This document shows, in pieces, positions 1 to 14,074 of a stretch of 64,000 nucleotides of DNA (the first letter of the stretch is position 1; every line of letters begins with the position of its first letter). The notes beneath the pieces are model-generated. The model did not search any database. It was not told where the DNA came from and worked only from the letters and a program-made list of their open reading frames with translations. The stretch is taken from NCBI GenBank assembly GCA_036675475.1, contig JAKFEY010000027.1:47012-111011 (forward strand). The letters are read 5' to 3'. This DNA comes from Vicinamibacterales bacterium. Lineage in GTDB: Bacteria; Acidobacteriota; Vicinamibacteria; Vicinamibacterales; SCN-69-37. Both the position numbers and the translations under genes were made by a program.

Positions 1-410
1 TTCTTGTCGAACATCCAGCCAACGCTGTTGGCTTCACCGAGGTTGCCGCCGTACTTGCCGAACGTGTGGCGGATTTCGCCGACCGTGCGGTTGCGGTTGT
101 CGGTCAGCGTGTCCACGAGCACAGCGACGCCGCCGGGGCCGTAGCCCTCGTACGTGACCTCGTCGTACTGGACGCCCTCTTCTTCGCCCGTGCCGCGGCG
201 AATCGCGCGCTTGATGTTGTCGGACGGCATGTTCACCGACTTGGCGTCGGCGATGATCGTCCGCAGGCGCGGGTTCTTGTCGGGGTCGCCCCCGCCGTGC
301 CGCGCCGCCACCGTGAGTTCCTTGATGATGCGCGTGAAGACCTTGCCGCGCTTGGCGTCGGCCGCGCCCTTCTTATGCTTGATCGTGTGCCACTTGGAAT
401 GCCCGGACAT
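1..410 (-). CDS. yebC: YebC/PmpR family DNA-binding regulator (N-terminal ~136 aa; C-terminus lies beyond the window edge)
   Basis: Not in the ORF track because no stop lies in-window. Reverse translation from ATG at 408-410 reads [76 protein letters not shown]..., the hallmark YebC/TACO1 N-terminus. Confidence 0.9.
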
Positions 411-432
411 GGGGCGAATTTTATCACCTCCA

Positions 433-1242
433 TTAGATCTTCCGGGCGATCAGAATCCAGACGTCAGCCCGGAGATCCCAGGGGCGGCCGTCGTAGTCGC
501 CGAGGGCCGCGTCCATGCGGAAACCGGCCCGCTCGATGCGGGCGGCCATCTCGGGCACGGGCAGGGTGCGGAAGGTGAGCGAAAACCGGCGGACCTCGCG
601 GGTGCGGCCCCGCCGCTCGGTGAACTCCTGGTCGAAAATCGTGAGCCGCTTGCGGCGATTCTGCCGGACGGACTCCACCAGCGTGACCACGGCGCCGTTG
701 GGCCGCCGGCCCTTCAAGCTCTGGTGGTTCGAGTACTCGGACCAGGCCGGCAGATCGGGCACGAGATCGACGGCGAGCTTGCCGCCCTTCTTCAGCACGC
801 GCGCGGCCTCGGCCAGCGCGGCGTCGAGGTCATCGTCGGAGGTCAGCGACTGAATGATGCCGTATGGCGCCATGACGGCGCCGAACGCGGACGAGCGGTA
901 CGGCAGAGCGCGGATGTCGCCGCGCGCGGCGCGCACCGGGACGCGCGCGCGCCGGAACCGCGCGCGGGCGCGGTCGAGCATGGCCTCGGATAAATCAATG
1001 CCGGCGACGAGGTGGCCGCCGCGGGCGCCGGGCGCGCCGGCCGCGCGCGCGGCCTCGACGTCGCGCGTCAGCGGCAGCAGCACGCGTCCGGTGCCGGTGC
1101 CGAGCTCGAGCGATCGCCCGGGGATGCCTGCGGCAAAGCGGCGCCAGAACGCGATGTCGCGCCGCCCGACGGTGCGTTGATTTTCCCAGTCGTAGAACGC
1201 GGCGTACTCGTCCCAGCCCTTGCTTCCGGTGGATGGCTTCAC
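433..1242 (-). CDS. Class I SAM-dependent methyltransferase (last gene of the lasso operon run)
   Basis: 269-aa ORF with motif [10 protein letters not shown] and post-[10 protein letters not shown]. It starts 17 nt downstream of the kinase gene on the same strand. Confidence 0.8.
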
Positions 1243-1258
1243 GTGTGGTCCCTAGAGT

Positions 1259-2152
1259 TTAAATGCAATCGCGCAGCACGGCGTCGACCGCGGCGTCGAG
1301 AAACGCCAGCCCGTCGGGATAACAGACGCGGCGCGACGGCACGGCGGCGGCCGCGCGGTTGGCGGCGTCGAACAGCCGCGCCGACTCGGCGCGATCACCC
1401 ACGTCCAGCCGAAACACGTGCGACAGCATCTCGATGCGCATGACGGCCGGCGACAGCGGCTGCACGCTGACGGCATCGCCGGTCTCGAGCAGATACAGGC
1501 GCGCGAGAGGCACGCGTCCGGACGCCAGCGCCACCGGCGCGCGCAGTTTGCCCGTCCCGATCGCCGTCAGCGGCGCGCCCGCGGGCGCCGCCTCGCGCAT
1601 GTCGTGCCACAGGCGCACGCCGTCGGCGGTCGGCCACACGGCGGGCGCGGCCTCATGCAGGTCGACGGCGAGCGCATCGTCGGCCACGAGCGCGAAGCCG
1701 CGGCGGCAGCAGGCGGCGGCCAGCGTGCTCTTGCCGGCGCCCGATTCTCCGATGAACGCCACCGCGCCGGCAGGCGTGTCGACGGCGCACGCGTGCAGGA
1801 CGAAGCGGCCGGTGCGGCTCAGCGCCAGCGGCAGCACCTGGTGCAGCAGCAGATGATCGAGCGTGGACGCGTCGAGGGCGGGCGCGGCCTGGAACGTGAC
1901 GGCGCGTCCATCGCGGGCCACGAGAGACGCGAGATCGGGCAGCGTCACGCGAAAGCCGGTGGCGGCGCGGCTGATGGACATCCAGACCGTGTCCGCGTCA
2001 CCCGTCCATTGCTGAATCGGTTCGTCTGACGCGGCCGGCACGTCGCCGCGGCGGATCACGATGTCGGGCGGGCCGGCGGCCGCGGGCAGGTGCGCGAAAT
2101 CGATGTCGCCGCCAACCGTGAGATCGGCGAACCGGCGCGCGCCGCGCATCAC
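1259..2152 (-). CDS. HprK-related (HPr kinase C-terminal domain-like) kinase, putative RiPP tailoring kinase
   Basis: 297 aa with P-loop FIGESGAGKSTLAAACCRRGFALVADD, resembling the HprK C-domain (GxSGxGKS...G..LVADD). Its start overlaps the upstream stop as ATGA (2149-2152). Confidence 0.75.
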   Translation of the reverse strand: MMRGARRFADLTVGGDIDFAHLPAAAGPPDIVIRRGDVPAASDEPIQQWTGDADTVWMSISRAATGFRVTLPDLASLVARDGRAVTFQAAPALDASTLDHLLLHQVLPLALSRTGRFVLHACAVDTPAGAVAFIGESGAGKSTLAAACCRRGFALVADDALAVDLHEAAPAVWPTADGVRLWHDMREAAPAGAPLTAIGTGKLRAPVALASGRVPLARLYLLETGDAVSVQPLSPAVMRIEMLSHVFRLDVGDRAESARLFDAANRAAAAVPSRRVCYPDGLAFLDAAVDAVLRDCI

Positions 2153-3279
2153 GCGCGGCCGTACACGGCCAGCACTTCGGCGACGAGCACCTCGGCGGCC
2201 TGCGCATCAGGAAACAGACCGGGATGCGTCGCGAACACCGCCGTCTCAATCTCGCGGATCGTGCGGCGCCCGTCGCACAGATCGAGCACGGTGCGGCGCG
2301 CCTCGCCGTGAATGGTGAGCGACGGCACGGCGTCCGGCCGCGTGCGCGCGATCGCCTCGCGGGTCGGCAGCATGCCCTTCCAGGTCGAATGCGACATCCG
2401 ATCCGATCCGTCGGCGCGCGCGATGTCCCAGGTGACGATGGAGTCGGCAGGCAGTACGCGGACAGCCACGCGCGCCTGCTCGCCCGGCGCGAGGTCGAGC
2501 GGGCGATCGAACGGCAGAAACGCGGGGCGCCGCTCGATGCGATCGGGCGCGTCCGGCGCGTTGGTCATCCACACGCCCGGCGCGAGTTCCGCATGAAAGA
2601 AGCCGCACAGGCCGTCGGCGCGGCACGCCGCGGTCGCGGTGAGCGTAAACGACGCCGACAACGGCATGCCGTCCCACGACGCGGCGTCGAAGGCGATCGG
2701 CGAGGCCGCGGCGGACAGCAGCGTGATGTGTTCGATGCGCGTCGGATAGCCGGTGTTGATCGCGATGGTTCGCGCCGCCGCGGTGTCGACGCCGCCTGGC
2801 CGCGTGCGCCAGAACTCGACGCGCGCGCGCATGACGGGCGAGGCCATCAGCGCGATATCGAGATGCACGGGACCAGGCACGATGCGCGCGCCCGGCTTGA
2901 GCAGGCGGCGCCGCGCATCGCCCGCGTACTCGAGCAGCCCCGCGTCGAATCCCATCCGGCCTATCTGATCGCACACGAGGACGTCCGCGGGTTCGGGCAG
3001 CTCGGCGCGCGTGGAATGCGCGGCGATGTGGGTGATGCGGTCGGCCGCGCCGGCGGCGCGGGCGATGGCGCGGGCGACTTCGATGATGCCGCCCTCGTCG
3101 ACGGCAAACACGCGCGCGGCGCCGGCGTCGAGCGCCATGAGGCCGAGGATGCCCGTGCCGCAGGCAAGGTCGAGCACGATATCGCCCGGCGCGACGGCGG
3201 CGTGAATGGCGCGGCGGAACGCGTCGAGCCGCGGCTGGTCGCTCAGATATTCACGGTGTTCGTCGAGGACGAGCGACAT
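2149..3279 (-). CDS. Protein arginine N-methyltransferase (PRMT)-fold SAM methyltransferase with a C-terminal PqqD/RRE-like extension
   Basis: 376 aa. The N-terminus HREYLSDQPRLDAFRRAI...VLDLACGTGILGLMALDAGAARVFAVD...ADVLVCDQIG...LLKPGARIVPG...RVEFW is colinear with type I PRMT motifs (Rossmann, THW-like region, beta-barrel). The last ~80 aa (SLTIHGEARRTVLDLCDGRRTIREIETAVFATHPGLFPDAQAAEVLVAEVLAVY) look like a PqqD winged helix. Confidence 0.7.
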   Translation of the reverse strand: MSLVLDEHREYLSDQPRLDAFRRAIHAAVAPGDIVLDLACGTGILGLMALDAGAARVFAVDEGGIIEVARAIARAAGAADRITHIAAHSTRAELPEPADVLVCDQIGRMGFDAGLLEYAGDARRRLLKPGARIVPGPVHLDIALMASPVMRARVEFWRTRPGGVDTAAARTIAINTGYPTRIEHITLLSAAASPIAFDAASWDGMPLSASFTLTATAACRADGLCGFFHAELAPGVWMTNAPDAPDRIERRPAFLPFDRPLDLAPGEQARVAVRVLPADSIVTWDIARADGSDRMSHSTWKGMLPTREAIARTRPDAVPSLTIHGEARRTVLDLCDGRRTIREIETAVFATHPGLFPDAQAAEVLVAEVLAVYGRA

Positions 3280-3297
3280 GAACGCGGCGGCGGGCCC

Positions 3298-3471
3298 TTA
3301 CAGGCACCGCATCTTGCCGCCGGCTTCCGTGATGTTGCCCGACGATCCGCGCGTGAGCTTCGCGAGGTGGCCGTACTCCACCAGCGCGGGCTTCTCCCAG
3401 GCGCGCGCGGGCCTGGCGGTCTCGTCGCGCGGGCGGTCGGCGTCGTCCGGAGTGTGCGCCATGCCCCTCAT
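3298..3471 (-). CDS. Lasso peptide precursor (41-aa leader + 16-aa core GSSGNITEAGGKMRCL)
   Basis: Internal start of track ORF 3298..3522. It reads MRGMAHTPDDADRPRDETARPARAWEKPALVEYGHLAKLTR/GSSGNITEAGGKMRCL. The leader fits aromatic-xx-P-x-L-xxx-G-xxxxx-T-x with Thr at -2, and the core has Gly1 and Glu8. The ATG at 3469-3471 forms ATGA with the cyclase stop. An alternative ATG lies at 3460-3462. Confidence 0.8.
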   Translation of the reverse strand: MRGMAHTPDDADRPRDETARPARAWEKPALVEYGHLAKLTRGSSGNITEAGGKMRCL

Positions 3472-5270
3472 CTTGCCCCAAAGCGCGCGGCCAGCCAAGC
3501 GTCGACGCCGATGATCCGCCACAGCGCGAGCGCCGCCGCGCCGTCCTGTTCCCGGGCGCGGGCGGCAAGGGCGCCGACTTCGGCGGACACGACCCAGCCG
3601 CGCGCCGTCAGCGCCGGCACGGCGAGATGGCGCTGCACGTCCGGCGCGCGAAGCGCCTCCACCAGCAGGCGCGTGAAGTCGTTCTTCGTCACGCGCGCGG
3701 CGGTCTCGGGCGACAGCCGCGGCGCCATGGCCGCGCGCATGGCCGCGCGGTTGTGCGCCGGCGTGAGGTGCGCGTCCTGCGGCGTGGCGAACGCCAGCTC
3801 CACGAGGCGCCGGTCGTAGAACGGATGACGCAGCTCGACGCCCGACGCCACCGCCAGGCGGTCGAGTCGCTCCTTGGCAAACGCTTCTTCACCGCTGTCG
3901 AGACGCCATCGCATGCGGCGCCAGCTTTCGGCCGGCGCGCCGCGCGTGTCGGGGCGCCGGCGCAGCCGATCGCGCAGCTCGACGCGCGCGGCAAACGCCG
4001 GATCGATCCACGCGGGCAGCGGGGCGTGCCTGACGGCGCGCGCCGCGCGCCGCAGCGGCGCGGGCACGAGCGGCAGCAGGCCATCGCGCGCGAAGGATGG
4101 CCAGCTCCATGTCACTTCCTCGCCGGCGGCAGCCCCCGCGCGCTGCCATTGGCGCAGCGCGCCCAGCCGGCCGCGCCGCAGCAGGTCCGCCATGTGCGCC
4201 ATCTCGCCGCTCCACCACTGATCCCCGCCGAACCCCGTCAGCACAACACGGGCGCCCGCGGCCGCGAGCGCGGCATGCAGGCCCGTGAAGAGCGGCCGCC
4301 CCGAAGGCGAATCAGGCAGATCGGCGTCGGTGAGGATCGAGGCGAGATCGTGCGCCGGCGGATCGACAGGCGGCGTCACCGCGATCGGCTCGATCGACCA
4401 CCGGCGCGCCATCGCATCGATCCAGCGCGACTCGTCGGCCTCCGGCCAGGGAAAACGCAGCGCGCCGGCCATCGGCGCCGCCAATCCGTTCGCGCAGATC
4501 GTGCCCAGCACCGACGACGAATCGAGCCCGCCGCTCAGGTGCGTCCCGACCGTGGCACTGCCGGCGCACCGCGCGCGAACCGCCTCGTCGAACACCTCGC
4601 GAAATCGCGAGGCGTGATCGTCGAGCGATCCGCCGTGCATCTCGCGCGGCGGCTCCCAGTACCTCGAAACCGCAACGCCCTGCTCGCTCGCGACGAGCAT
4701 GTGGCCCGCCGGCACGCGGCGCACCGATAGAAACGGCGTGGCTTCCGCGTCGGCAATGTCGCCCCCCAGGGCTTCCGCGAGAAAGCCCTCGTCGGGTGAA
4801 TCGCCGGGCTCCACGAGCGCGCGCAGCTCCGACGCGCATCGCACGTGCGCGGTGCCGGCGCGGTAATAGAGCGGCCGGATGCCGAGCGCGTCGCGAATCG
4901 CCAGCAGGCGGCACGCGCGCGTGTCGAGGATCACGATCGCGAAGTCGCCGGCGAGGCGGGCCGCGAAGCCGTCGCCCCAGCGCGCGAACGCCTCGAGCGC
5001 GATCCCCGCGTCGGTCGCGTCGGCCGGCAGCCCGAGCTCGCGGCGGAGATCGGCCGCGTTGTCGAGCCGCAGATCCGCGGCGAGCAGCCCGCACGACGGA
5101 TGGCTGCCGAATGCGGGCGACGGACCCGCCGCGCCGATCACGCCGCCGGCGCCCGCGACAACCAGGCGATGACCGGCGCCCCGCTCGGGCATGCGCTCGA
5201 GCAGCGCCTTGACGGCAGCCTGCGCGGCGGCCGCATCGGCGGCGCCAAACACCGCGGCGACGGCATTCAT
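3468..5270 (-). CDS. Lasso peptide cyclase (asparagine synthetase-like, LasC type)
   Basis: Real start MNAVAAVFG at 5268-5270 inside track ORF 3468..5735; the upstream 155 aa are Arg-rich read-through over the B2 gene. It has the PP-loop SGGLDSS and lacks the N-terminal catalytic Cys2 of true AsnB. Confidence 0.85.
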   Translation of the reverse strand: MNAVAAVFGAADAAAAQAAVKALLERMPERGAGHRLVVAGAGGVIGAAGPSPAFGSHPSCGLLAADLRLDNAADLRRELGLPADATDAGIALEAFARWGDGFAARLAGDFAIVILDTRACRLLAIRDALGIRPLYYRAGTAHVRCASELRALVEPGDSPDEGFLAEALGGDIADAEATPFLSVRRVPAGHMLVASEQGVAVSRYWEPPREMHGGSLDDHASRFREVFDEAVRARCAGSATVGTHLSGGLDSSSVLGTICANGLAAPMAGALRFPWPEADESRWIDAMARRWSIEPIAVTPPVDPPAHDLASILTDADLPDSPSGRPLFTGLHAALAAAGARVVLTGFGGDQWWSGEMAHMADLLRRGRLGALRQWQRAGAAAGEEVTWSWPSFARDGLLPLVPAPLRRAARAVRHAPLPAWIDPAFAARVELRDRLRRRPDTRGAPAESWRRMRWRLDSGEEAFAKERLDRLAVASGVELRHPFYDRRLVELAFATPQDAHLTPAHNRAAMRAAMAPRLSPETAARVTKNDFTRLLVEALRAPDVQRHLAVPALTARGWVVSAEVGALAARAREQDGAAALALWRIIGVDAWLAARFGAR

Positions 5271-5677
5271 GCGGAGGTAACGAAGACCGGATGCGGCGCC
5301 GCGTCGATCGAACAGAGCGGCGCATAGGGGCGAACGGGATGCTGCCCGCTCAGCGCGAGGCTGCCATGCGCGAGCCAGGCATGGGCCGCGAACGCGCGCG
5401 GGCTTGCGCCGCCCGGCGCGACGCCGATCGTGACGCGCGCGGCCAGCCCTTCGCGCGCCAGCAGGTGCGCGCCGGCCAGCGCGCGCGTAAGACAGGTCGG
5501 CCGCGCGATCCACGCGGCGCGATTGAGCGCGCGCGCGATTTCCGCGGCGCGCGCCGGATCGAGCCGCGCGCCTGCAGGCGCCTGCAGCTGCCGCCCCGCA
5601 AGATCGCGGCACGACACCACGCGCAGCGCCAGCGCCGTCGTTACCAGCACGCGCAGCGCGCGAAAGGTCAGCATCAT
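5267..5677 (-). CDS. Lasso peptide biosynthesis B2 protein (transglutaminase-like leader peptidase)
   Basis: 136 aa with the family motifs PTCLTRALAG (Cys) and FAAHAWLAHG (His). It has 4-nt overlaps with both neighbours. Confidence 0.85.
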   Translation of the reverse strand: MMLTFRALRVLVTTALALRVVSCRDLAGRQLQAPAGARLDPARAAEIARALNRAAWIARPTCLTRALAGAHLLAREGLAARVTIGVAPGGASPRAFAAHAWLAHGSLALSGQHPVRPYAPLCSIDAAPHPVFVTSA

Positions 5678-5946
5678 GGGGCCGGCGCGACGATGAGGCC
5701 GCGCGCCGTGAGGTCGGATACGAAGGCGTCGACATCGGCTTCGATCACCTGACGATCGGCCGCGAACTCGCGCGCGAGCGTGGCGACCACGGCCTCGCGC
5801 GCCTCGCCGGCCTCGATCAACTGCCAGATGCGGGCAGCCGTTCCGGTCATGCCGAAGTACAAACTGCTCCGCAAATCGAGCACGAGCACCTCGCCATCGA
5901 GCTCGCGCGAAAGCGCATCGGGGCTCACCTGGTAGGGTCCGGCCAT
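5674..5946 (-). CDS. PqqD-family RiPP recognition element (lasso B1)
   Basis: 90 aa: LDGEVLVLDLRSSLYFGMTGTAARIWQLIEAGEAREAVVATLAREFAADRQVIEADVDAFVSDLTARGLI, a typical PqqD/RRE pattern. Confidence 0.85.
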   Translation of the reverse strand: MAGPYQVSPDALSRELDGEVLVLDLRSSLYFGMTGTAARIWQLIEAGEAREAVVATLAREFAADRQVIEADVDAFVSDLTARGLIVAPAP

Positions 5947-6110
5947 CGAGGCTATCTTAGGACGCCGGTACGACGGGACGGTAAGCTGTGTAATTACAAG
6001 GACTTACAGACGTGTGCAAAGGCATGCAGAAACGGGTGTCTCAGGCCGAAAAGTTGGGTGTAATGTACCAGGCCGGTACGTGGTATTGTACGTAAAATAA
6101 CCGACGCTAT
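5947..6110. promoter_or_regulatory. Divergent intergenic control region (lasso operon leftwards, EPS plus-strand operon rightwards)
   Basis: This is the only markedly AT-richer stretch in the first 10 kb. It contains TGgTATTGT (extended -10-like, 6081-6089) and TAAAAT (6093-6098) before the 6111 start, two copies of GCCGGTACG, and a weak palindrome ATGTACC-N5-GGTACGT (6063-6081). Confidence 0.3.
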
Positions 6111-6710
6111 ATGACACGAGCTGACATCCGCCTCGTCGCCGTCGTCGCCATGTTCACGCTGGCCGCGCCGTCCCTCGACGCGCAGGTCAGTGTTGCCGGC
6201 CGTGCCGCCGCGCGTACGATTGCCACGCGCACGACGACGTCCGCCGCGCGCGCGGCCAGCGCGCTCAGCTCACTGGGCTCAGGCACGTCCACCACCGCCT
6301 CGCGCCTCACGTCCGTGATGGGATATCTGTGGGCGGGCGAAGGCATGCCGGTATCGAACGCCACCGTGCAGCTGCGCAACATCGTCACGGGCCAGATCGA
6401 ACAGGTGTCGTCGACGCTGCAGAACGGCGCGTTTGCGTTTCAGAACGTGAGCAGCGGCACGTACGCCATCGAGTACGTCACCGAGTCGGCCGGACGCGTG
6501 CTGGCCGTCGGCCAGGCGTTCAGTGTCGCGCCGGGTGAAACGGTCGCCACGTTCGTGCGCCTCGGATCGAAGCTCGCGCTGCTCGTCCCCGACCTGGCGT
6601 CGAATGCGGCCCAGGCCGTCGTCTCCAACGCGGCCCAGGCGGTCGCGTCGGGCATTGTCAGTGTTGCAGGCACCGCTGCCCCGGAACAGCCTGCAAGCCC
6701 GTTGCGCTAA
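6111..6710 (+). CDS. Secreted protein with carboxypeptidase-regulatory-like (CarboxypepD_reg) beta-sandwich
   Basis: Signal peptide MTRADIRLVAVVAMFTLAAPSLDAQ, then GYLWAGEGMPVSNATVQLRNIVTGQ...NGAFAFQNVSSGTYAIEYV, and a tandem SNAAQAV repeat near the C-terminus. Confidence 0.55.
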   Translation: MTRADIRLVAVVAMFTLAAPSLDAQVSVAGRAAARTIATRTTTSAARAASALSSLGSGTSTTASRLTSVMGYLWAGEGMPVSNATVQLRNIVTGQIEQVSSTLQNGAFAFQNVSSGTYAIEYVTESAGRVLAVGQAFSVAPGETVATFVRLGSKLALLVPDLASNAAQAVVSNAAQAVASGIVSVAGTAAPEQPASPLR

Positions 6711-6739: not shown

Positions 6740-9070
6740 ATGCTTACGTCTCCCCACGAGCCCGCCGGCGACCGCGCGATGCCTCCGATGCCGCCCAGCA
6801 TGCCGATGGGCAGCGGCGACGGCGAGATCCACCTGCTCGATCGCCTCAGCGTCGTTTATCGCTATCGCCGCCTGGTCATTTCGATCGTGGTGCTCATCGT
6901 CGCCGGCAGCGTCGTGCAGACGTTCACGACCGTGCCGCGCTACAAGGCCACGGCGGTTGTGGAAATCGCGGAGGAGCGCCCGCTCTCGTCATCGCTGCGC
7001 GACATCGAGCAGCAGTTCTCGATTCAGGACCCCGAGGTGTACATGACGACGCAGGAGAACGTCCTGCGGAGCCGCGATCTCGCGCGCGTGGTCGTCAAGA
7101 AACTCGATCTGGCGCACCATCCGGAATTCGCGCCGGGCGCCGACGCGCCCTCCGGCCTTGCCGCGGCGTTCGCGTCGGTACGCGGCCGGATCACCCGTCC
7201 CCTGCGTGAACTGTTTCAGAGCAAGCCCCCTGTCTCCGCGACCGTGACCCCGGCGGCGCCATCCGATCGCGCAGGCGCGTCTGAGACGCCCGAAGAGGCG
7301 GCGCTGGTGACCGCGTTTCTCAACCGCCTGGTGATCGAGCGGCGTCCGCTGAGCCGGCATGTCAACGTGCAGTTCGACGCGCGTGACCCTCAGCTTGCCG
7401 CGCGCGCCGCGAACATGCTGGCCGAGGAGTACGTCGACAAGAATCTCGAGCTGAAGCGGACGGCGCTCGACAGCCGCATCAAGCTGTACGAGAGCGAAAT
7501 CCAGAACCAGAAGCTTCTGATCGACGGATATCAGACTGCGCTCTTCGCCTACCGGGCGAAGACCGGCACCGGCGACGTCAACGAGAACGTGCTGGGCACC
7601 ACCATCGCGCAGTTCGCCAGCGAAGAAAACAGGGCGGCCACCCTGGCCGTTCAGCACAAGGCTGTGTACGACCAGCTTCGGCCGGTGCTCGAGAACCCGG
7701 ACTTCGAGGTCACCGATCCCAAAATCATGTCGCTGCCGGCCATCGTGGGCGACGGCACGGTGAGCGCCCTGCAGGGGACCCTGCAGCGGCTGCAGAGCGA
7801 GCTCCAGGCGCAGCGGGTGCAGGGCCGCATGGACAACTACCCCGAGGTGCGCCGGATCAATCAGGACATCGAGCAGAACAAGCTGCAGCTCCGCAACCGC
7901 ATCCGCCTGCTCGCGCAGACGGCGCGCACGCAGTACGAAAGCGCGAACGCCAACGCGCAGAGCTATCGCAAGCTGCTCAACGAGACGCAGGCCAAGGCGG
8001 CGCAGGCGGGCATCGACGCCGTGCAGCCGGGATTCGTCGAGACCAGCCTGCGGGCGGCCCAGACCCTCTTGACGAGCCTGACGGCGGAGTTGCAGCAGAC
8101 CAAGGTCATGTCCAACAGCACGGAAAACAACGTGCGGACGATGGACCGGGCCGAGATACCGCCGGCGCCGTACACGCCGAACGTGCCGAACAATCTGGCG
8201 ATCGGCCTGATTGCGGGCCTCGTGCTCGCCGTGGGCGTGGCGTTCGCCCTCGATTATCTCGACGACACGATCAAGACGCCCGAAGACATCACCCGCAAGC
8301 TGCGCATTCCGTTCCTGGGGCTCGTGCCGGCGGTGCGCGGCGACAAGCAGCCGGTGTTGTCCGGCCCCGTCCCGCATGATTTCGGGGAAGCGTACCGCGC
8401 GCTGCGCACGTCGCTGGTCTTCACCAGCGGCGGCGAGAAGACGCGCGTGATCGCCGTGACGAGCGCGCAGCCGCTCGAAGGCAAGACGACCACCGCGTGC
8501 AACCTCGCGATGGTGCTCGCGTTCGGCGGATCGCGCGTGCTGCTGATGGACGCCGACCTGCGGCGGCCCGGCGTGCACAAGGCGCTGAAGTTGAACAACA
8601 CGGTGGGCCTGTCGCACCTGCTCGTGGGCCAGGCGCGGGTGCGCGAGGCGATTCAGCGCACCTCCGATCCGAACTTCTGCGTGATGACGGCCGGGCGCAC
8701 GCCGCCCAATCCGTCGGAGCTGCTGTCGTCCGAGCGCATGCGCCAGCTGGTAGAGAACCTGTCCGAGGGCCCGTTCGACTGGGTCATCATCGACACGCCT
8801 CCCGTGCTGGCCGTCACCGATGCCGTGGTGATCACGCCGATGGTGTCGGGCACCGTCTTCGTGCTTGGTGCCGAAATGACGCGCCGCCGGCTGGCCGAGC
8901 GCGCGGTACAGATGGTGCTGCAGACACGCCCGCGCGTGGTGGGTGCCGTGCTGAACCGCGTCAACTTCGACCGCAACAAGTATTACTATTCGCGCTACTA
9001 CGGCTATCAGTACAAGAGCTACTACGGGCAGCAGACCCGGGCAACCGAGCAGCCCTCATCCGAGGGCTGA
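6740..9070 (+). CDS. Polysaccharide co-polymerase / BY tyrosine autokinase (Wzc/GumC-like)
   Basis: It has an N-terminal Wzz-type TM plus coiled coil and a C-terminal P-loop with Walker A (LEGKTTTACNLA), A' (LLMDADLRRP) and B (VIIDTPPVLAVTDA). The terminal Tyr cluster is YYYSRYYGYQYKSYY. Confidence 0.85.
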   Translation: MLTSPHEPAGDRAMPPMPPSMPMGSGDGEIHLLDRLSVVYRYRRLVISIVVLIVAGSVVQTFTTVPRYKATAVVEIAEERPLSSSLRDIEQQFSIQDPEVYMTTQENVLRSRDLARVVVKKLDLAHHPEFAPGADAPSGLAAAFASVRGRITRPLRELFQSKPPVSATVTPAAPSDRAGASETPEEAALVTAFLNRLVIERRPLSRHVNVQFDARDPQLAARAANMLAEEYVDKNLELKRTALDSRIKLYESEIQNQKLLIDGYQTALFAYRAKTGTGDVNENVLGTTIAQFASEENRAATLAVQHKAVYDQLRPVLENPDFEVTDPKIMSLPAIVGDGTVSALQGTLQRLQSELQAQRVQGRMDNYPEVRRINQDIEQNKLQLRNRIRLLAQTARTQYESANANAQSYRKLLNETQAKAAQAGIDAVQPGFVETSLRAAQTLLTSLTAELQQTKVMSNSTENNVRTMDRAEIPPAPYTPNVPNNLAIGLIAGLVLAVGVAFALDYLDDTIKTPEDITRKLRIPFLGLVPAVRGDKQPVLSGPVPHDFGEAYRALRTSLVFTSGGEKTRVIAVTSAQPLEGKTTTACNLAMVLAFGGSRVLLMDADLRRPGVHKALKLNNTVGLSHLLVGQARVREAIQRTSDPNFCVMTAGRTPPNPSELLSSERMRQLVENLSEGPFDWVIIDTPPVLAVTDAVVITPMVSGTVFVLGAEMTRRRLAERAVQMVLQTRPRVVGAVLNRVNFDRNKYYYSRYYGYQYKSYYGQQTRATEQPSSEG

Positions 9071-9119: not shown

Positions 9120-10388
9120 GTGCTCGCGTTCGGGGCCGTCTATCCCTGGGCCGCGCCCCCGCTGCTCGCGCTTGCGCTCGTCGCGCTGTGGCTCGCGCGC
9201 GCCACGCCGTCGCGGCGCGACCTGCTCGACGTCGCGCCGCTCGCCGCGGTCGCGATCATCGCGTTTCAGCTGATGCCGCTTCCCGTGTCCGTGCTCGACG
9301 TGCTCGCGCCCGAACACCGCGCCTATCGCGCGGCCATGTCGCTCGGCTACGACGCGCGCGCGTGGGCGCCGCTGTCGCTCGATCCGCGGGCCACGCGCAC
9401 GGGACTGATGCTGGCCGCGGCGGCCCTCGCGCTGTTTTCGGCCACGCGGCAGCTTGCGGAACACGAACGGCGGACGGCGGCGCGATGGATTGCCTGGCTC
9501 GCGGCGATCGTGTCACTCCTCGGCCTCGGCTCGGGGATGCTGTTTCCGGGCGGGCGCATTTACGGGTTCTGGCAGCCGCTCGAGCCGAGCGCGCAGCCGT
9601 TTGGCGTCATCATCAACCGCAATCACTTCGCGGCGTGGGCGATGATCGCCGCCGCGCTCGCGGCCGGCGGCCTGGCCACCCATGCGGCGCGCCGGCGCGC
9701 GCACACGCCGGCCGCGCGCGCCCTGGTCGAGGCGCTGAGCGACACACGCGCGCTGTGGCTGCTCTTCCCGGCCGTCGTCGCCATCGCCGCGGCTGTTGCC
9801 ACGGGATCGCGCTCGGCGCTTGCCGGACTGCTTGCGGCAGGGCTCGTCGCGGCGCTGCTGGTCAGAAGGCGCGCCGGACGCGCCGCGCGGCGCGTGGCGA
9901 TTGCCGCGGCGGCCCTGTGCCTGATCGCCGCGTTCAACTGGTCGCGGCCCGACGTCCTCATGTCGCGCCTCGATCGAACGGGCGGCGAGCTCGGGCTGCG
10001 TTCCGCGATCTGGCAGGAGTCGATCGGCATCGCGCAGCGGTACCCGATCACGGGCGTGGGCGCCGGCGCCTTCCCCGCCGCCATGGCGCACTATCAGCGC
10101 GCCACGCGCGACGTGTTCTTCAATCACGCGCACAACCAGTACCTCGAGATCGCCGCCGAAGGCGGCCTGCTGCTGGGCCTGCCGCTGCTGCTGTTTGCGG
10201 GCGCGCTCGCCTGGCGCATCGCGCGCCGGCTGCGGGCGCCCGCCGGCAGCGCCTTCTGGCTCCGCGCCGGCGCCGCGGCGGCGCTCGCCGGCCTGGCCGT
10301 GCTGTGTATCTGGGAATCGCCGTTCCGCACGCCGGCCACGCTCATGCTGGCGGCCGTGGCCGCGGGGCTTGCGGCGGGGCGCGACTGA
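9120..10388 (+). CDS. O-antigen ligase/polymerase family (Wzy_C) membrane protein
   Basis: 422-aa polytopic protein with the family motif FFNHAHNQYLEIAAEGGLLLGLPLLLF. Confidence 0.8.
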   Translation: MLAFGAVYPWAAPPLLALALVALWLARATPSRRDLLDVAPLAAVAIIAFQLMPLPVSVLDVLAPEHRAYRAAMSLGYDARAWAPLSLDPRATRTGLMLAAAALALFSATRQLAEHERRTAARWIAWLAAIVSLLGLGSGMLFPGGRIYGFWQPLEPSAQPFGVIINRNHFAAWAMIAAALAAGGLATHAARRRAHTPAARALVEALSDTRALWLLFPAVVAIAAAVATGSRSALAGLLAAGLVAALLVRRRAGRAARRVAIAAAALCLIAAFNWSRPDVLMSRLDRTGGELGLRSAIWQESIGIAQRYPITGVGAGAFPAAMAHYQRATRDVFFNHAHNQYLEIAAEGGLLLGLPLLLFAGALAWRIARRLRAPAGSAFWLRAGAAAALAGLAVLCIWESPFRTPATLMLAAVAAGLAAGRD

Positions 10389-11131
10389 TGGCGCTGCGGG
10401 TGGCCTTCGATCTCGACGGGGTCATCGCCGACTTCCGCTCGGCGTTCGAGCGCGAGGCGCGCCGTCACGTCGCCGGCGTGCTCGATCCCGACCGCGCCGA
10501 CAGCGACACGTTCTCGAACGCCGAGATGCGGCGCATCTGGGCGCGCATCCAGCGCACGCCGAACTGGTGGACGACGGTGAAGCCGTACGAACCGGCCGAG
10601 ATCGCGCGCCTGTACGAGATCGCGCGGCGCAGGCGCTGGGAAGTCGTCTTCATGACGAAACGGCCGGTCACGGCCGGTGAGCCCGTGCAGTTCCAGACGC
10701 AGCACTGGCTCGAGCAGCACGGCTTTCACTATCCCGCGGTCGTCACCGTTCCAGGCTCACGCGGCGAGCTGGCCAACGCCCTGCGCCTCGACATCGTCGT
10801 CGACGATCAGCTTTATAACTGCCTCGATGTCGTGAGCGGATCGCATGCGAAGGCGCTGCTGCTGGCGCGCGATCGCAGCGACGATGTGGAGCGCCAGGCC
10901 GCGTCGCGCGGGATCGGCGTGGTGCGGACGCTGGCGGAGGCCGTTGACGCGCTAACGGGCCTGGAGACGCACCAGACCGAGCGCCAGGGGCGCCTGCAGC
11001 GATTGAGCGACTGGCTCGTGCCGAAATCCGACGCCGCGCTGCCGTCGCAGCCGGATCCGGGGCGGGTCACGCTCAGCGATCCTGACGGGACGGATCCGGA
11101 TCGGGATCCGCAGGGCGGGACGGGCGTCTGA
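10388..11131 (+). CDS. HAD-superfamily hydrolase, 5'(3')-deoxyribonucleotidase (NT5C)-like
   Basis: Real start MALRVAFDLDGVIADF (DxDGV nucleophile motif) at 10388, which overlaps the upstream stop (TGATG). The 425 aa upstream in track ORF 9113..11131 are an out-of-frame read of the Wzy_C gene. Confidence 0.65.
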   Translation: MALRVAFDLDGVIADFRSAFEREARRHVAGVLDPDRADSDTFSNAEMRRIWARIQRTPNWWTTVKPYEPAEIARLYEIARRRRWEVVFMTKRPVTAGEPVQFQTQHWLEQHGFHYPAVVTVPGSRGELANALRLDIVVDDQLYNCLDVVSGSHAKALLLARDRSDDVERQAASRGIGVVRTLAEAVDALTGLETHQTERQGRLQRLSDWLVPKSDAALPSQPDPGRVTLSDPDGTDPDRDPQGGTGV

Positions 11132-12227
11132 ACCAGCCGGGCGCGCCGCCGGCCAGCCGTCGCAGGTACAGCAGGGGCAACGGCAGGCGCGAGCGTGCGT
11201 CACTCCGCACGAACGCCGCGTCGGGCAGAAAGGTTTCGCGCAGGAGCGCCGCACGATCGCGCCAGCCGAGGGCGCGCCAGTCGAGCGCGAAGTCGTCGCC
11301 ACGGGAGCGATCCTCCCTCGTGAACATCAACAGATCCGACGGCTGCGCGGCCAGACGCGCAACGGCATCGGCGACGCCGGCCGGCAGCGTCTCGCCCGAT
11401 CGCGCCGCGGCGCCGCTCACTTCGTACGCCACCAGCGGTCCCACCCCCCAATGGGCCGCTCGCTCGAGCAGCTGCGGCACGCGCCGTTCGGCATGCGCGG
11501 CCAGACGCAGCATGTCGACGTCCCAGATCAGGCGCCGCTCGCCAGGATGATGCACCAGCCGGTGCACGGCGGCCGTGATGATCGCGTCCACGTCATCGGG
11601 CCCGCGCGCCGCGCGATGCAGGCCCGGGAGCGGCACGCTTCGCGCCGCGACATCCGCGAAGGACATGCGCGAGGCCAGCGCGGGCGCGTTCACGACGCCG
11701 GTGTGGAGATCGACGGTGCATTCGCCGTCGGCCACCGGCCGGCGGTAACTCTGCTGCCGCACGCGCACCCGGCCCGGCTTTTTCACGTCCTTGACGAAGC
11801 CGGCGCCAAGCAGCGCGCGTTCGACGATGCCGGCGTGGCGGTGCTCGACGAGCAGGTCCCAGTCGAGGCGCATGCGATCGGCCGGCGACCCGTACAGGCT
11901 GTACGCGAGCGCCGCGCCTTTGAAGAACAGTACCGGCACGTTCACGTGATCGAGCGCGCCGGCGACGGCGTGACGCTGCAGGGCTTCATACAACGTCCAG
12001 CGGCGCAACGCCCCCTGCATGGCGGCGACGTGCGCTCCAAGTCGAACCTCCGCTACATCCGGCGGCTCGACGCGCAGAAGTCCCCGCAGCGCAAACGGCA
12101 CCACCTGCTGCTCTTCGGCAGCCGTGACGAGATCGCCTGGATCGCAGGGCGCGATCTCCGCGGGGGTGATCTGATGGGGATGAAAGAGAAGGCCGGCGAG
12201 TATGCGCGCGACGGGCATGCCGCCCAC
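11073..12227 (-). CDS. Nucleotidyltransferase family protein (uncharacterised NTP_transf_5-like)
   Basis: 384 aa. VPVLFFKGAALAYSLYGSPADRMRLDWDLLVEHRH resembles the NTP_transf_5 core (K-G..L....Y......R...D.DLLV). Confidence 0.6.
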   Translation of the reverse strand: MGGMPVARILAGLLFHPHQITPAEIAPCDPGDLVTAAEEQQVVPFALRGLLRVEPPDVAEVRLGAHVAAMQGALRRWTLYEALQRHAVAGALDHVNVPVLFFKGAALAYSLYGSPADRMRLDWDLLVEHRHAGIVERALLGAGFVKDVKKPGRVRVRQQSYRRPVADGECTVDLHTGVVNAPALASRMSFADVAARSVPLPGLHRAARGPDDVDAIITAAVHRLVHHPGERRLIWDVDMLRLAAHAERRVPQLLERAAHWGVGPLVAYEVSGAAARSGETLPAGVADAVARLAAQPSDLLMFTREDRSRGDDFALDWRALGWRDRAALLRETFLPDAAFVRSDARSRLPLPLLYLRRLAGGAPGWFRRPSRPADPDPDPSRQDR

Positions 12228-12229
12228 GA

Positions 12230-13399
12230 TCAGCTCCAGATGGAGCTGATGACGGCGCGCCGGAAGGCGGGATGCCGCAGCAGCGCCAGGGCCGCGCGGC
12301 GGTGCCAGTTGAAGTCGGCCGTCTCCTTGAGGAGCGGCACGATGCCGTCGACGCGCGCGAGCTCGACGAGCGCGTCGATGCCGCGGTCGCCAAGCCGGGA
12401 CGCGAGCCTGCGAAAGGCGAGGCCCGCGCGAATGTCGGGCCCGATGCGCTCGCGCCAGCGCGCTTCATACGGGCGCAGGTCGCGCTCGGCGAGGCGGTCG
12501 GCCGCCAGGCACGCGTCGAGCGTCTCGGCGGCGTACACGCCGCTCAGCATGCCGTAGTAGATGCCGCCGCCGGTGGTGGGTTTGACGAGGCCCGCGGCAT
12601 CGCCGACCGCCAGCACGCGATCGGACACGGTCTTGGGCACCGGGCCGAGCGGCAGCATCTTCATCCGCGGCGGGGGCATCGGCGCGGCCGGCATGCCGTG
12701 CTCGCGCGCCAGCTGCGCGGTGAAGGCGTCGAACCGCGCGCGCGCGTCCGTCTCGCACAACAGGCCGAGCCTGGCGTACGGCACGTCGCCGCGGACGAAC
12801 GGCACCGCCCACGCAAACCCGGCCGGCGCGATGGTGCGGCCCATGCGCACGTCGATGTGCGGCAGCGACGCATACGGCATCTCCACCTGCGCGCTCTGCA
12901 CGTAGGCCCGCGGAATGCCGAGGCCGAGCGCGCGATTGAAGCGATAGTTGGCGCCGCAGGCCAGGACCAGCGCGCGCGCGCGAACAGGCGCGCCGCCGCG
13001 CACCGCGGCGGTGACGCCGGCGGCGTCGACCGTGATGCCCTCGACACGGGCGCCGGTGCGCAGCTCCGCGCCGGCATCCGCCGCGCGCGCGGCCAGCGCC
13101 GCGTCGAACCGCGGCCGATCGACGACCGTGGCGATCACGTGATCGCTTTCAATCAGGACGGGCTCACCGTGGCCGGCGCGAAAGCCGGCCGATCGCGTAA
13201 TCGCCAGGATGGTGTCGCGCGGAAGATCGAGCTCGCTGAACGCGTCGTGCCCGAGCACGCCGGTGCAGTGGGCAGGACGGCCGACTTCCGGATGCTCTTC
13301 GAGCACGAGCGTGTCTCGTCCGCGCGCCGCGAGACGCGCGGCAGCCGACAGACCCGCAGGGCCCGCTCCTATGATGAGAACATCACGCACGTCGCGCAC
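12230..13399 (-). CDS. Geranylgeranyl reductase family FAD-dependent oxidoreductase
   Basis: It has the dinucleotide fold VLIIGAGPAGLSAAARLA, HCTGVLG, and the C-terminal GDAAGLVKPTTGGGIYYGM motif typical of the GGR family. Confidence 0.8.
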   Translation of the reverse strand: MRDVRDVLIIGAGPAGLSAAARLAARGRDTLVLEEHPEVGRPAHCTGVLGHDAFSELDLPRDTILAITRSAGFRAGHGEPVLIESDHVIATVVDRPRFDAALAARAADAGAELRTGARVEGITVDAAGVTAAVRGGAPVRARALVLACGANYRFNRALGLGIPRAYVQSAQVEMPYASLPHIDVRMGRTIAPAGFAWAVPFVRGDVPYARLGLLCETDARARFDAFTAQLAREHGMPAAPMPPPRMKMLPLGPVPKTVSDRVLAVGDAAGLVKPTTGGGIYYGMLSGVYAAETLDACLAADRLAERDLRPYEARWRERIGPDIRAGLAFRRLASRLGDRGIDALVELARVDGIVPLLKETADFNWHRRAALALLRHPAFRRAVISSIWS

Positions 13400-13411: not shown

Positions 13412-14074
13412 TCAGGTGAGTCTGCTGTTCGTGCCGCGCCGCTCCCACGATCCGCGAAGCGTGATGACGAGCGACTGCAGCACCAGGCGCAGGTCAAGCC
13501 AGACGCTCTGCCTGCGAAGGTAGAGCTTATCGTAGCGGAATTTCTGACGGCGGGGTAGGTCGCGCCGCGCGTAGATCTGTGCGATGCCGGTGAGCCCGGG
13601 CCGCACCGCCGACCGCACCGTGAAGCCCGGGACGTCCTCCAGGGCCTGGGCGCCGGCGCCGGCGGCGTGCGTTTCGATCTCTCCTGGCCGCAGGGCGCGC
13701 GGCCCGACCACGCTCATGTCGCCGCGGAGGATGTTCCACAGCTGCGGCAGCTCGTCGAGCGCGGTCGCGCGCAGCACGCGCCCCACGCGCGTCACGCGCG
13801 GATCCCGGGCGACGGCCTGCCGCGGCCCGTCGCGCTCGGCGTCGGCCACCATCGAGCGGAACTTCCACGCCAGGAACGGCCGGCCCCGCAGGCCCGAACG
13901 CGGCTGCGCGTAAAAGACCGGGCCGCGGCTGTCGAGCCGAATGGCCGCGGCGGCCGCAAGGGCAATCGGCAGCGTCAGGATCAGGCCGGCCGACGCAAAC
14001 GCGATGTCGACACTCCGCTTGATCGGGTCGCGCGCAATGGCGGCGCCTCGCGCCAGGAGGCCGGCGTCGGTCAT
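13412..14074 (-). CDS. Polyprenyl-phosphate sugar-phosphate transferase (bacterial sugar transferase, EpsL/WcaJ C-domain type)
   Basis: Real start MTDAGLL at 14072-14074. It has one TM, then PVFYAQPRSGLRGRPFLAWKFRSM...DELPQLWNILRGDMSVVGPRA...RPGLTGIAQI. Confidence 0.85.
   Translation of the reverse strand: MTDAGLLARGAAIARDPIKRSVDIAFASAGLILTLPIALAAAAAIRLDSRGPVFYAQPRSGLRGRPFLAWKFRSMVADAERDGPRQAVARDPRVTRVGRVLRATALDELPQLWNILRGDMSVVGPRALRPGEIETHAAGAGAQALEDVPGFTVRSAVRPGLTGIAQIYARRDLPRRQKFRYDKLYLRRQSVWLDLRLVLQSLVITLRGSWERRGTNSRLT

What the first reader, a model, noticed from the sequence alone, without database searches (positions are those of the whole stretch)
3298..3471. Lasso precursor hidden in a longer track ORF, with a textbook leader motif and predicted Gly1-Glu8 ring
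Seen: the sequence reads MRGMAHTPDDADRPRDETARPARAWEKPALVEYGHLAKLTR | GSSGNITEAGGKMRCL. Leader residues W25, P28, L30, G34 and T40 match the conserved lasso-leader pattern aromatic-xx-P-x-L-x3-G-x5-T-x, with Thr at position -2. The core starts with Gly and has Glu at position 8. Inference: this gives an 8-membered Gly1-Glu8 macrolactam with tail AGGKMRCL, where K12, M13 or R14 could act as plugs, plus a single unpaired Cys15. The 41-aa leader is about twice the usual length, and its N-terminal half is highly charged. That half could be a second docking site for the extra RRE-bearing enzyme.
Basis: partly seen in the sequence, partly recalled or inferred. Interest (0 to 1): 0.8.

Follow-up and report, generated by a model that had tools for sequence, protein, structure and literature searches.

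The report
Lasso peptide precursor, Cys-Leu-ended clade
This is a real, conserved gene for a lasso-peptide precursor inside a complete biosynthetic operon of a soil acidobacterium. Its core machinery is ordinary, but its clade always ends in Cys-Leu and always travels with an arginine-methyltransferase-like enzyme and a small kinase whose chemistry has not been described.

Summary
On the minus strand, 3471..3298 encodes the quoted 57-aa peptide. Trp, Pro, Leu, Gly and Thr sit at leader positions -17, -14, -12, -8 and -2. The core is GSSGNITEAGGKMRCL, and Glu8 is its only acidic residue.

The peptide passes NCBI's lasso-leader model (NF033521). It is translationally coupled to a B1(PqqD)-B2-C operon and is under purifying selection. 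It belongs to a clade of at least 154 metagenomic precursors, 146 of which have their only candidate ring acid at position 8. It is a genuine lasso precursor.

- The about 40-aa leader is the clade norm (median 40). Its N-terminal half keeps its composition but not its sequence.
- The neighbouring methyltransferase has no detectable RRE. Pfam, profile-profile comparison, AlphaFold2 and Foldseek all gave negative results.

The unusual features lie elsewhere:
- 104 of 154 clade members end in exactly Cys-Leu, with a single Cys.
- This ending co-occurs with a 376-aa PRMT-fold methyltransferase whose arginine-binding motifs are altered.
- It also co-occurs with an HprK-like kinase.
- The operon sits beside exopolysaccharide genes.

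No paper in the searched library describes this combination. I rate it a new variant of a known kind, of moderate interest.

The parts
3298..3471 (-). Lasso precursor gene A (57 aa). Leader is codons 1-41 (3349-3471), core is codons 42-57 (3301-3348), stop is 3298-3300. An alternative start is ATG 3462, giving 54 aa.
   Evidence: (NF033521, 26.9 bits > 19)
3352..3399 (-). Leader recognition motif W25-x2-P28-x-L30-x3-G34-x5-T40 (positions -17 to -2). This is the predicted binding site for the PqqD-like B1 protein, with Thr(-2) as the B2 cleavage determinant.
   Evidence: Positions match Tyr(-17), Pro(-14), Leu(-12) in PMC10368454
3301..3348 (-). Core peptide GSSGNITEAGGKMRCL. Predicted Gly1-Glu8 macrolactam with tail AGGKMRCL. 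Ser3 and the C-terminal Cys15-Leu16 are invariant in the close family.
3468..5270 (-). Lasso cyclase C (600 aa). The mechanical 755-aa ORF reaching 5735 is a spurious Arg/Ala-rich N-terminal extension.
   Evidence: NF033535 248.9 bits is the best family; PF00733 116.5 bits
5267..5677 (-). Leader peptidase B2 (136 aa, transglutaminase-like).
   Evidence: PF13471, 57.1 bits; NF033537, 56.6 > 33
5674..5946 (-). B1, the PqqD-like RiPP recognition element (90 aa).
   Evidence: (PF05402, 63.7 bits)
2149..3279 (-). MT1 (376 aa). PRMT-fold SAM methyltransferase with a C-terminal three-helix domain (about 323-373). Its motifs are DQIG[RH]xGF[EDN]AG and R-I-x-R-R in place of the PRMT double-E and THW loops.
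1259..2149 (-). HprK/ScmC-like kinase K (296 aa). It has His119, the P-loop G134-ESGAGKS and D157-D158, matching the catalytic motif described for lasso kinases.
   Evidence: motif from PMC10368454
433..1242 (-). MT2 (269 aa), a class I (UbiE-like) methyltransferase. It is probably part of the cluster, but membership is less certain.
11073..12227 (-). NTP_transf_5 nucleotidyltransferase (384 aa). It recurs next to this type of lasso operon, so it is a possible cluster member.
   Evidence: PF14907, 86 bits
12230..13399 (-). Geranylgeranyl-reductase-family FAD protein (389 aa). It recurs next to this type of lasso operon, so it is a possible cluster member.
   Evidence: TIGR02032, 188.6 > 158.8

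Best explanation
The ORF is the precursor (A) gene of a complete, translationally coupled lasso-peptide operon, B1-B2-C-A-MT1-K-MT2, on the minus strand at 433-5946. The host is most likely a Vicinamibacteria-type acidobacterium.

Proposed core pathway:
1. The PqqD-like B1 binds the leader through W(-17)xxP(-14)xL(-12)x3G(-8).
2. The transglutaminase-like B2 cuts after Thr(-2)-Arg(-1).
3. The Asn-synthetase-like cyclase C activates the Glu8 side chain and joins it to the Gly1 amine around the tail.
4. The product is a 16-residue lasso with an 8-residue ring. The loop is about A9-G11, Lys12, Met13 or Arg14 act as plugs, and Cys15-Leu16 hangs below the ring.

Shown here: the gene, its motif, its conservation, its selection and the presence of all core enzymes. 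Inferred by homology: the order of steps and the threaded topology.

Proposed tailoring (inferred, lower confidence):
- The HprK-like kinase phosphorylates a ring Ser, most likely the invariant Ser3. This probably happens on the linear precursor with help from B1, as shown for BsfK.
- The PRMT-fold methyltransferase MT1 acts on the invariant C-terminal Cys-Leu, methylating either the Cys thiol or the Leu carboxylate rather than an arginine.
- The long, charged N-terminal leader half is a disordered spacer typical of the clade, not a second docking site.

The confidence of 0.85 refers to the core claim (genuine lasso precursor processed by B1/B2/C to a Gly1-Glu8 ring). For the specific tailoring assignments I would give about 0.4 (Ser3 phosphorylation) and about 0.4 (MT1 acting on the Cys-Leu terminus).
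For: - Sequence and motif.
- NF033521 scores above its cutoff.
- B1, B2 and C domain hits.
- The operon has ATGA or 1-nt overlaps, or gaps of 16-18 nt, and identical contigs carry the same gene calls.
- The same gene order is conserved in loci at 50-72% protein identity, including two Acidobacteriota MAGs.
- Purifying selection.
- 146 of 154 clade members have their only candidate ring acid at position 8, and 129 of 154 start with Gly.
- The kinase catalytic motif is intact.
- BsfK gives a precedent for Ser3 phosphorylation with B1 assistance: PMC10368454.
- Ser3 is invariant in the close family.
- 104 of 154 clade members end in CL and none has a second Cys.
- 41 of 46 precursors next to MT1 homologues of at least 42% identity end in CL, against 0 of 8 next to more distant MT1 relatives.
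- Arg is present in only 18 of 41 of those cores.
- MT1 has the PRMT fold (Foldseek E 1e-25; PDB hmmsearch E 4.5e-40), but the second double-E position is E/D/N and the THW loop is replaced by R-I-x-R-R.
Against: - No product has been observed. Topology and every modification are inferred.
- The cyclase scores below the (high) curated cutoffs of both NCBIfam lasso-cyclase models.
- A single unpaired Cys is atypical for lasso cores.
- The tail is short, and its first three residues (Ala-Gly-Gly) are small, so kinetic stability of threading is uncertain.
- The operon in this window contains no exporter, although relatives such as L012 have an ABC transporter.
- Ser/Thr at core position 3 occurs in only 59 of 104 CL-type cores across the wide clade, so Ser3 may not be the universal kinase site.
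- Assigning MT1's target to Cys-Leu rests on co-occurrence and altered active-site motifs, not on a direct test. Three loci with MT1 of at least 42% identity have only non-CL precursors.
Confidence: 0.85

Rival explanations
1. The charged N-terminal half of an unusually long leader is a second docking site for an extra RRE carried by the neighbouring methyltransferase.
For: The N-terminal extension is real and bounded. In L009 an in-frame stop lies three codons upstream of the start Met. An extension of similar length is kept across the clade. MT1 has an extra conserved C-terminal domain that canonical PRMTs lack. A short basic patch before the aromatic residue recurs.
Against: The N-terminal half is not conserved in sequence. 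MT1's extra domain gives no PqqD hit. Its hhalign probability against B1 is 0.6%. It is all-helical with no beta sheet, the element against which leaders pair in known RREs. It has no PqqD-like Foldseek hit.
Confidence: 0.07
2. The precursor is real, but the mature product is not a simple threaded lasso. One option is a branched-cyclic, unthreaded peptide. Another is a peptide whose C-terminal Cys is cross-linked to the ring, for example through a thioether formed after kinase-driven Ser/Thr elimination.
For: The tail is short and Gly-rich. There is a single invariant Cys near the C-terminus, and 40 of 41 CL cores next to MT1 have Ser/Thr within positions 1-6. A kinase is always present. Cross-linking of the C-terminus to the ring is a known lasso modification (PMC13352647).
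Against: The operon contains no lyase or cyclase domain. The characterised HprK-type lasso kinases leave a stable phosphate. The B1/B2/C machinery is canonical.
Confidence: 0.08
3. The small ORF is a chance ORF in high-GC intergenic DNA between the cyclase and methyltransferase genes.
For: High-GC DNA gives many spurious ORFs. Examples here are the antisense 531-aa ORF at 2224-3819 and the 755-aa extended form of the cyclase.
Against: The NCBIfam hit is above cutoff. There are 0 hits in 100 shuffles. Synteny and sequence are conserved over 14 close clusters and 145 profile hits. Synonymous changes outnumber nonsynonymous ones.
Confidence: 0.02

Closest known systems
BsfA/BsfK phosphorylated lasso system of Bradymonas sediminis (PMC10368454)
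   Same: Split B1/B2, cyclase C, an HprK-like kinase with the same H...GxxGxGKS...DD motif, and an associated nucleotidyltransferase. The kinase phosphorylates Ser3 of the core on the linear precursor with help from B1. Ser3 is invariant in the close family here.
   Different: BsfA has Ile at -2 and a C-terminal Asp. Here Thr is at -2 and the terminus is an invariant Cys-Leu. The bsf genes listed in the paper (A, B1, B2, C, D, K, N) include no methyltransferase. The gene order here places A after C.
Paeninodin, ThcoK/SyanK and pseudomycoidin (C-terminal Ser phosphorylation, polyphosphorylation and phosphoglycosylation; PMC8498205, PMC9266682)
   Same: An HPr-kinase homologue, and in pseudomycoidin a nucleotidyltransferase, act as lasso tailoring enzymes on the precursor.
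   Different: Those kinases need a C-terminal Ser. This precursor ends in Leu, so that site does not exist.
Lassomycin and StspM-type C-terminal O-methylated lasso peptides
   Same: A 16-residue core with an 8-residue ring. A SAM methyltransferase is encoded in the cluster. StspM methylates the C-terminal carboxylate of the linear precursor.
   Different: StspM was modelled on mitomycin 7-O-methyltransferase. MT1 here has the type I PRMT fold with an extra helical domain. The C-terminal Cys-Leu signature is specific to this clade.
Microcin J25
   Same: A Gly1-Glu8 eight-residue macrolactam and a long leader (37 aa, from my own knowledge).
   Different: MccJ25 uses a fused B protein, a different leader without the YxxPxL motif and an ABC exporter, and has no tailoring enzymes.
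Type I protein arginine methyltransferases (PRMT6, CARM1, PRMT2)
   Same: MT1 shares the Rossmann plus beta-barrel fold over about 320 residues, at about 20-22% identity.
   Different: The first catalytic Glu is an invariant Asp. The second is E, D or N. The THW loop is R-I-x-R-R. There is an extra C-terminal helical domain. No conserved Arg exists in the presumed substrate.

Membership tests
Lasso peptide precursor (RiPP class) | Leader motif [Y/W]xxPxLx3Gx5Tx with Thr at -2 | tested here: met
   W25, P28, L30, G34, T40. NF033521 scores 26.9 bits against a cutoff of 19. The motif is conserved in 154 relatives.
Lasso peptide precursor (RiPP class) | Core starts with Gly/Ala/Ser/Cys and has Asp/Glu at position 7, 8 or 9 | tested here: met
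   Gly1 and Glu8, with Glu8 the only acidic residue in the core. 146 of 154 relatives have their only acid at position 8.
Lasso peptide precursor (RiPP class) | Encoded next to a lasso cyclase (Asn-synthetase homologue), a PqqD-like RRE and a transglutaminase-like peptidase | tested here: met
   C at 3468-5270, B2 at 5267-5677 and B1 at 5674-5946 are on the same strand and overlap.
Lasso peptide precursor (RiPP class) | Mature product is a threaded macrolactam ([1]rotaxane) | not testable with these tools
   Needs MS/MS, protease or thermal unthreading assays, or NMR.
C-terminally phosphorylated lasso peptides (paeninodin type) | C-terminal Ser as the kinase target | tested here: not met
   The core ends in Cys-Leu. 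The rule is from PMC8498205.
Ser3-phosphorylated lasso peptides (BsfA type) | HprK-like kinase with an intact catalytic motif, plus Ser/Thr at core position 3 | tested here: met
   His119, G134-ESGAGKS and D157-D158. Ser3 is invariant in 15 of 15 close sequences. Actual phosphorylation was not tested.
Type I protein arginine methyltransferase (for MT1) | PRMT fold (Rossmann domain plus beta-barrel) | tested here: met
   AF2 mean pLDDT 91.4. Foldseek hits PRMT6 and CARM1 at E about 1e-25. hmmsearch hits PRMT2 at 4.5e-40.
Type I protein arginine methyltransferase (for MT1) | Invariant double-E loop and THW loop that bind the guanidinium group | tested here: not met
   Asp104 is invariant in place of the first Glu. 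Position 112 is E16/D8/N3 across 27 sequences. THW is replaced by R247-I248-x-R250-R251.
Type I protein arginine methyltransferase (for MT1) | A conserved arginine in the substrate | tested here: not met
   Arg is present in 18 of 41 CL-type cores next to MT1, and Arg or Lys in 29 of 41. Leader position -1 is Arg in only 66 of 154.
RRE (PqqD-like) domain in a tailoring enzyme | Sequence or profile similarity to PqqD, or a winged-helix fold with a three-stranded sheet | tested here: not met
   No PqqD hit. hhalign probability 0.6%. All-helical model with pLDDT 94. No Foldseek hit with E <= 0.001 and no PqqD or RRE structure among the 43 listed hits.

The most novel reading that the evidence does not exclude
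The invariant C-terminal Cys-Leu defines a large, undescribed clade of lasso peptides. In this clade a PRMT-fold enzyme would have been repurposed from arginine to a thiol or carboxylate at the peptide's end. Together with the HprK-like kinase, the NTP_transf_5 nucleotidyltransferase and a geranylgeranyl-reductase-family flavoprotein, it would build a CaaX-like or glycan/lipid-linked terminus. That would tie the peptide functionally to the exopolysaccharide machinery in which the operon is embedded, for example as a surface- or EPS-attached lasso rather than a free antibiotic.
Probability: 0.15. Interest if true: 0.8.

Novelty: new variant of a known kind. Interest (0 to 1): 0.5.

Why it matters
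The precursor itself would be one more lasso peptide. The clade it belongs to is more interesting. Two thirds of at least 154 sequence clusters keep a terminal Cys-Leu. That ending co-occurs with a methyltransferase of the eukaryote-like PRMT fold whose arginine-binding residues have changed, and with a small kinase. This points to tailoring chemistry that is absent from the list of known lasso modifications in a June 2026 review (PMC13352647).

Working it out would add a new enzyme-substrate pair for peptide engineering: a leader-independent or C-terminus-directed methyltransferase. It would also give bacterial PRMT-fold proteins, which are almost entirely uncharacterised, a concrete substrate. 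The conserved placement inside exopolysaccharide loci of Acidobacteriota hints at a physiological role other than antibiosis, in a phylum where RiPP function is essentially unexplored.

Tried and rejected
- RRE in MT1. I tested this with a Pfam scan of the C-terminal domain at E <= 10, profile-profile hhalign against the B1 family, AF2 of the whole protein and of the domain alone and Foldseek against PDB. All were negative, so I rejected it.
- Arg as the MT1 substrate. I rejected this as a general rule because Arg is absent from most cores and leader position -1 alternates between Arg and Gln.
- Upstream GTG 3522 as the true start. I rejected it because the extension overlaps the end of the cyclase gene, gene callers use ATG 3471 or 3462, and in L009 a stop lies three codons upstream of the equivalent Met.
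- The 755-aa form of the cyclase ORF. I rejected it because homology starts at residue about 165, and contigs call a 600-aa product.
- The second Asn-synthase homologue at 14940-16829 as a second cyclase. I rejected it because it is a true glutamine-hydrolysing asparagine synthase type (TIGR01536, 338.7 > 267.1).
- Promoter and terminator scan of 1-6400. It gave nothing informative.
- tRNA scan. None found.
- Eight literature searches for this combination, using terms for PRMT, PrmA, Acidobacteria, Vicinamibacter, StspM, HPr kinase, nucleotidyltransferase plus exopolysaccharide, and tailoring enzymes. They returned no description of it. Subscription-only papers are not covered.
- The genome collection scan found only two MAGs with a close precursor, so no cultured producer was identified.

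Full report
**Observation.** The coordinates are right, but the gene is on the minus strand. Reading 3471 to 3298 gives MRGMAHTPDDADRPRDETARPARAWEKPALVEYGHLAKLTR|GSSGNITEAGGKMRCL followed by a stop. It is the 3' part of a mechanical 74-aa ORF that starts at GTG 3522. The ATG at 3471 overlaps the stop of the upstream gene as ATGA. On six independent metagenome contigs that carry the identical locus, gene callers annotated a 57-aa product, or a 54-aa product from the second ATG. The full lasso-precursor pattern occurs once in the six frames of the window and in none of 100 Markov-shuffled windows.

**The operon.** On the same strand and tightly packed lie:
- B1, a PqqD-like protein, at 5674-5946 (PF05402, 63.7 bits).
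- B2, a transglutaminase-like peptidase, at 5267-5677 (PF13471, 57.1 bits; NF033537, 56.6 bits against a cutoff of 33).
- C, an Asn-synthetase-like cyclase, at 3468-5270. Its best NCBIfam family is the lasso cyclase model at 248.9 bits.
- A, the precursor.
- MT1, a 376-aa methyltransferase, at 2149-3279.
- K, an HprK/ScmC-like kinase, at 1259-2149.
- MT2, a class I methyltransferase, at 433-1242.

The precursor itself passes NCBI's curated lasso-leader model NF033521 (26.9 bits against a cutoff of 19), so a standard annotation pipeline would already name it.

**Conservation.** A search of 5.8 billion proteins found 14 clusters of homologues, all from metagenomes. W25, P28, VEYGHLAKLTR, Gly1, Ser3, Gly4, Glu8 and the terminal Cys-Leu are invariant in them. 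Only two species-representative genomes carry a close relative. Both are Acidobacteriota MAGs, one of them Vicinamibacterales, so the window most likely comes from that lineage. The gene order B1-(B2)-C-A-MT1-K is kept in loci whose proteins are 50-72% identical. Across six loci, codons W25 to G45 show 102 synonymous against 58 nonsynonymous codon differences. The gene is real and under selection.

**The wider clade.** A profile of the 15 sequences, scored against 1.84 billion representatives, gave 145 hits. Parsing those hits together with the close homologues and the window sequence gave these figures:
- 154 sequences carry the leader motif.
- 129 start the core with Gly.
- 146 have their only candidate ring acid at position 8.
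- The median leader is 40 aa, with a median of 23 residues before the aromatic residue.

The window's 41-aa leader is therefore normal for its clade. The N-terminal half is conserved in composition (median 38% charged) but not in sequence. The only recurring element is a pair of basic residues just before the aromatic (130 of 153). This does not fit a sequence-specific second docking site.

**The 'extra RRE'.** None of MT1, K or MT2 hits PqqD. MT1's conserved C-terminal domain gives these results:
- It has no PqqD hit even at E <= 10.
- It aligns with the operon's B1 family over only 8 columns, with probability 0.6%.
- It is predicted with high confidence to be all-helical.
- It has no Foldseek hit with E <= 0.001 in PDB. 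The best hit, at E about 0.9, is a domain of the mycobacterial methyltransferase Rv2067c.

**What is unusual.**
- 104 of the 154 clade members end in exactly Cys-Leu, and none of these has a second Cys.
- In the close family the tail varies in length through insertions, yet CL stays at the very end.
- Eighty metagenome loci were retrieved through MT1 homologues. Almost all with enough flanking sequence have a cyclase upstream and the HprK-like gene downstream.
- 41 of 46 precursors found next to MT1 homologues of at least 42% identity end in CL. None of the 8 next to more distant MT1 relatives does.
- Two non-CL clade members were examined. One has neither MT1 nor K. The other has a shorter 318-aa PrmA-like methyltransferase and no kinase.

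**MT1.** It has the type I PRMT fold (AF2 pLDDT 91; Foldseek hits PRMT6 and CARM1 at E about 1e-25; hmmsearch hits PRMT2 at 4.5e-40). Its active-site motifs differ from those of PRMTs:
- The first Glu of the double-E loop is an invariant Asp.
- The second position is Glu, Asp or Asn.
- The THW loop is replaced by a near-invariant R-I-x-R-R.

Arg occurs in only 18 of 41 associated cores. The simplest reading is that MT1 no longer methylates arginine and instead recognises the anionic C-terminus, methylating the Cys thiol or the Leu carboxylate. This is an inference from co-occurrence and motif changes, not a demonstrated activity.

**The kinase.** K keeps the His, P-loop and Asp-Asp residues shown to be needed in lasso kinases. 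The classical target, a C-terminal Ser, is absent. However, BsfK phosphorylates Ser3 of its core on the linear precursor with help from B1 (PMC10368454), and Ser3 is invariant in the close family. Ser3 is therefore the best candidate site here. Across the wide clade only 59 of 104 CL cores have Ser/Thr at position 3.

**Context.** The operon ends a locus of at least 25 kb for exopolysaccharide synthesis. Its genes are a Wzc-type tyrosine kinase, a Wzy_C protein, a priming sugar transferase, six GT4 glycosyltransferases and a true asparagine synthase. The divergent cassette CarboxypepD_reg-like/Wzc/Wzy/HAD-like recurs beside MT1-type lasso operons whose MT1 is only 43-72% identical. So do an NTP_transf_5 nucleotidyltransferase and a geranylgeranyl-reductase-family flavoprotein. 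In pseudomycoidin, a kinase plus a nucleotidyltransferase produce a phosphoglycosylated lasso, so a related decoration is possible here. The link to EPS is an observation without a tested explanation.

**Comparison and novelty.** The core system is a textbook split-B lasso pathway with a Gly1-Glu8 ring. A June 2026 review lists these lasso modifications: C-terminal methylation, hydroxylation, epimerisation, a second isopeptide bond, citrullination, aromatic cross-links, Trp chlorination and prenylation, Ser glycosylation, phosphorylation, acetylation, aspartimide formation and C-terminus-to-ring cross-linking. It lists nothing matching a PRMT-fold enzyme or a Cys-Leu terminus. Eight full-text searches found no description of one either. 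I therefore rate the finding as a new variant of a known kind. The precursor is ordinary and would be recognised by existing annotation. The clade's conserved terminus and accessory pair are undescribed. Interest is moderate (0.5).

Noticed in passing
window 6150-29180: The lasso operon sits at the end of a locus of at least 25 kb for exopolysaccharide synthesis. A divergent cassette on the + strand holds a CarboxypepD_reg-like gene (6150-6710), Wzc (6740-9070), Wzy_C (9120-10388) and an NT5C/HAD-like gene (10388-11131). On the - strand lie Bac_transf (13412-15190), a true asparagine synthase (14940-16829) and six GT4 glycosyltransferases. The same cassette recurs beside MT1-type lasso operons in L007, L008, L038, L050 and L053 and in part in L012 and L060. 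Wzc, with or without Wzy, lies on the same strand in L015, L022 and L047.
   Followed up: partly
window 12230-13399 (-) and 11073-12227 (-): A geranylgeranyl-reductase-family FAD protein (TIGR02032 above cutoff, with weaker hits to the peptide-modifying flavoenzymes QhpG and LodB) and an NTP_transf_5 nucleotidyltransferase lie upstream. Each recurs directly next to lasso genes in other loci. The FAD protein does so in L013, L017, L018 and L027. NTP_transf_5 does so in L015, L017, L018, L038 and L089. No prenyltransferase was seen.
   Followed up: partly
window 433-1242 (-): MT2 is 79-83% identical across the close loci, noticeably more conserved than C, MT1 and K (50-72%). In L009 and L010 it directly precedes the housekeeping genes YebC-RuvCAB. 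In L012 it follows an ABC transporter with a 4-nt overlap. In L050 it lies upstream of B1. Whether it belongs to the cluster is uncertain.
   Followed up: partly
L012 449-2716; L013 5065-7377; L014: In these related loci no B2 peptidase gene lies between B1 and the cyclase (gaps of only 140-220 nt). The window and L015 have one. B2 may be encoded elsewhere in those genomes.
   Followed up: no
P0162, P0230, P0257, P0275; L059, L061: Sister groups within the same leader clade have other fixed C-termini, such as ...(N/H)(Q/H)HG(Q/E)G after a GTTGS(H/A)xDKG core, and ...RRMGM. This suggests several terminus-specific tailoring subfamilies.
   Followed up: no
L013/L014, L066, L059, L045, L072: Several related loci carry two tandem precursor genes with similar cores.
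   Followed up: no
window 3468-5735 (-), 2224-3819 (+): High-GC artefacts. The cyclase ORF extends 155 codons upstream as an Arg/Ala-rich stretch with no homology. A 531-aa antisense ORF spans MT1, the precursor and the end of the cyclase.
   Followed up: yes
clade-wide; window codons 21-24 (3400-3411): 130 of 153 clade leaders have two or more Lys/Arg in the four residues before the aromatic residue of the YxxP motif. The window, with PARA, has only one. This is the only recurring feature in the N-terminal leader half.
   Followed up: no
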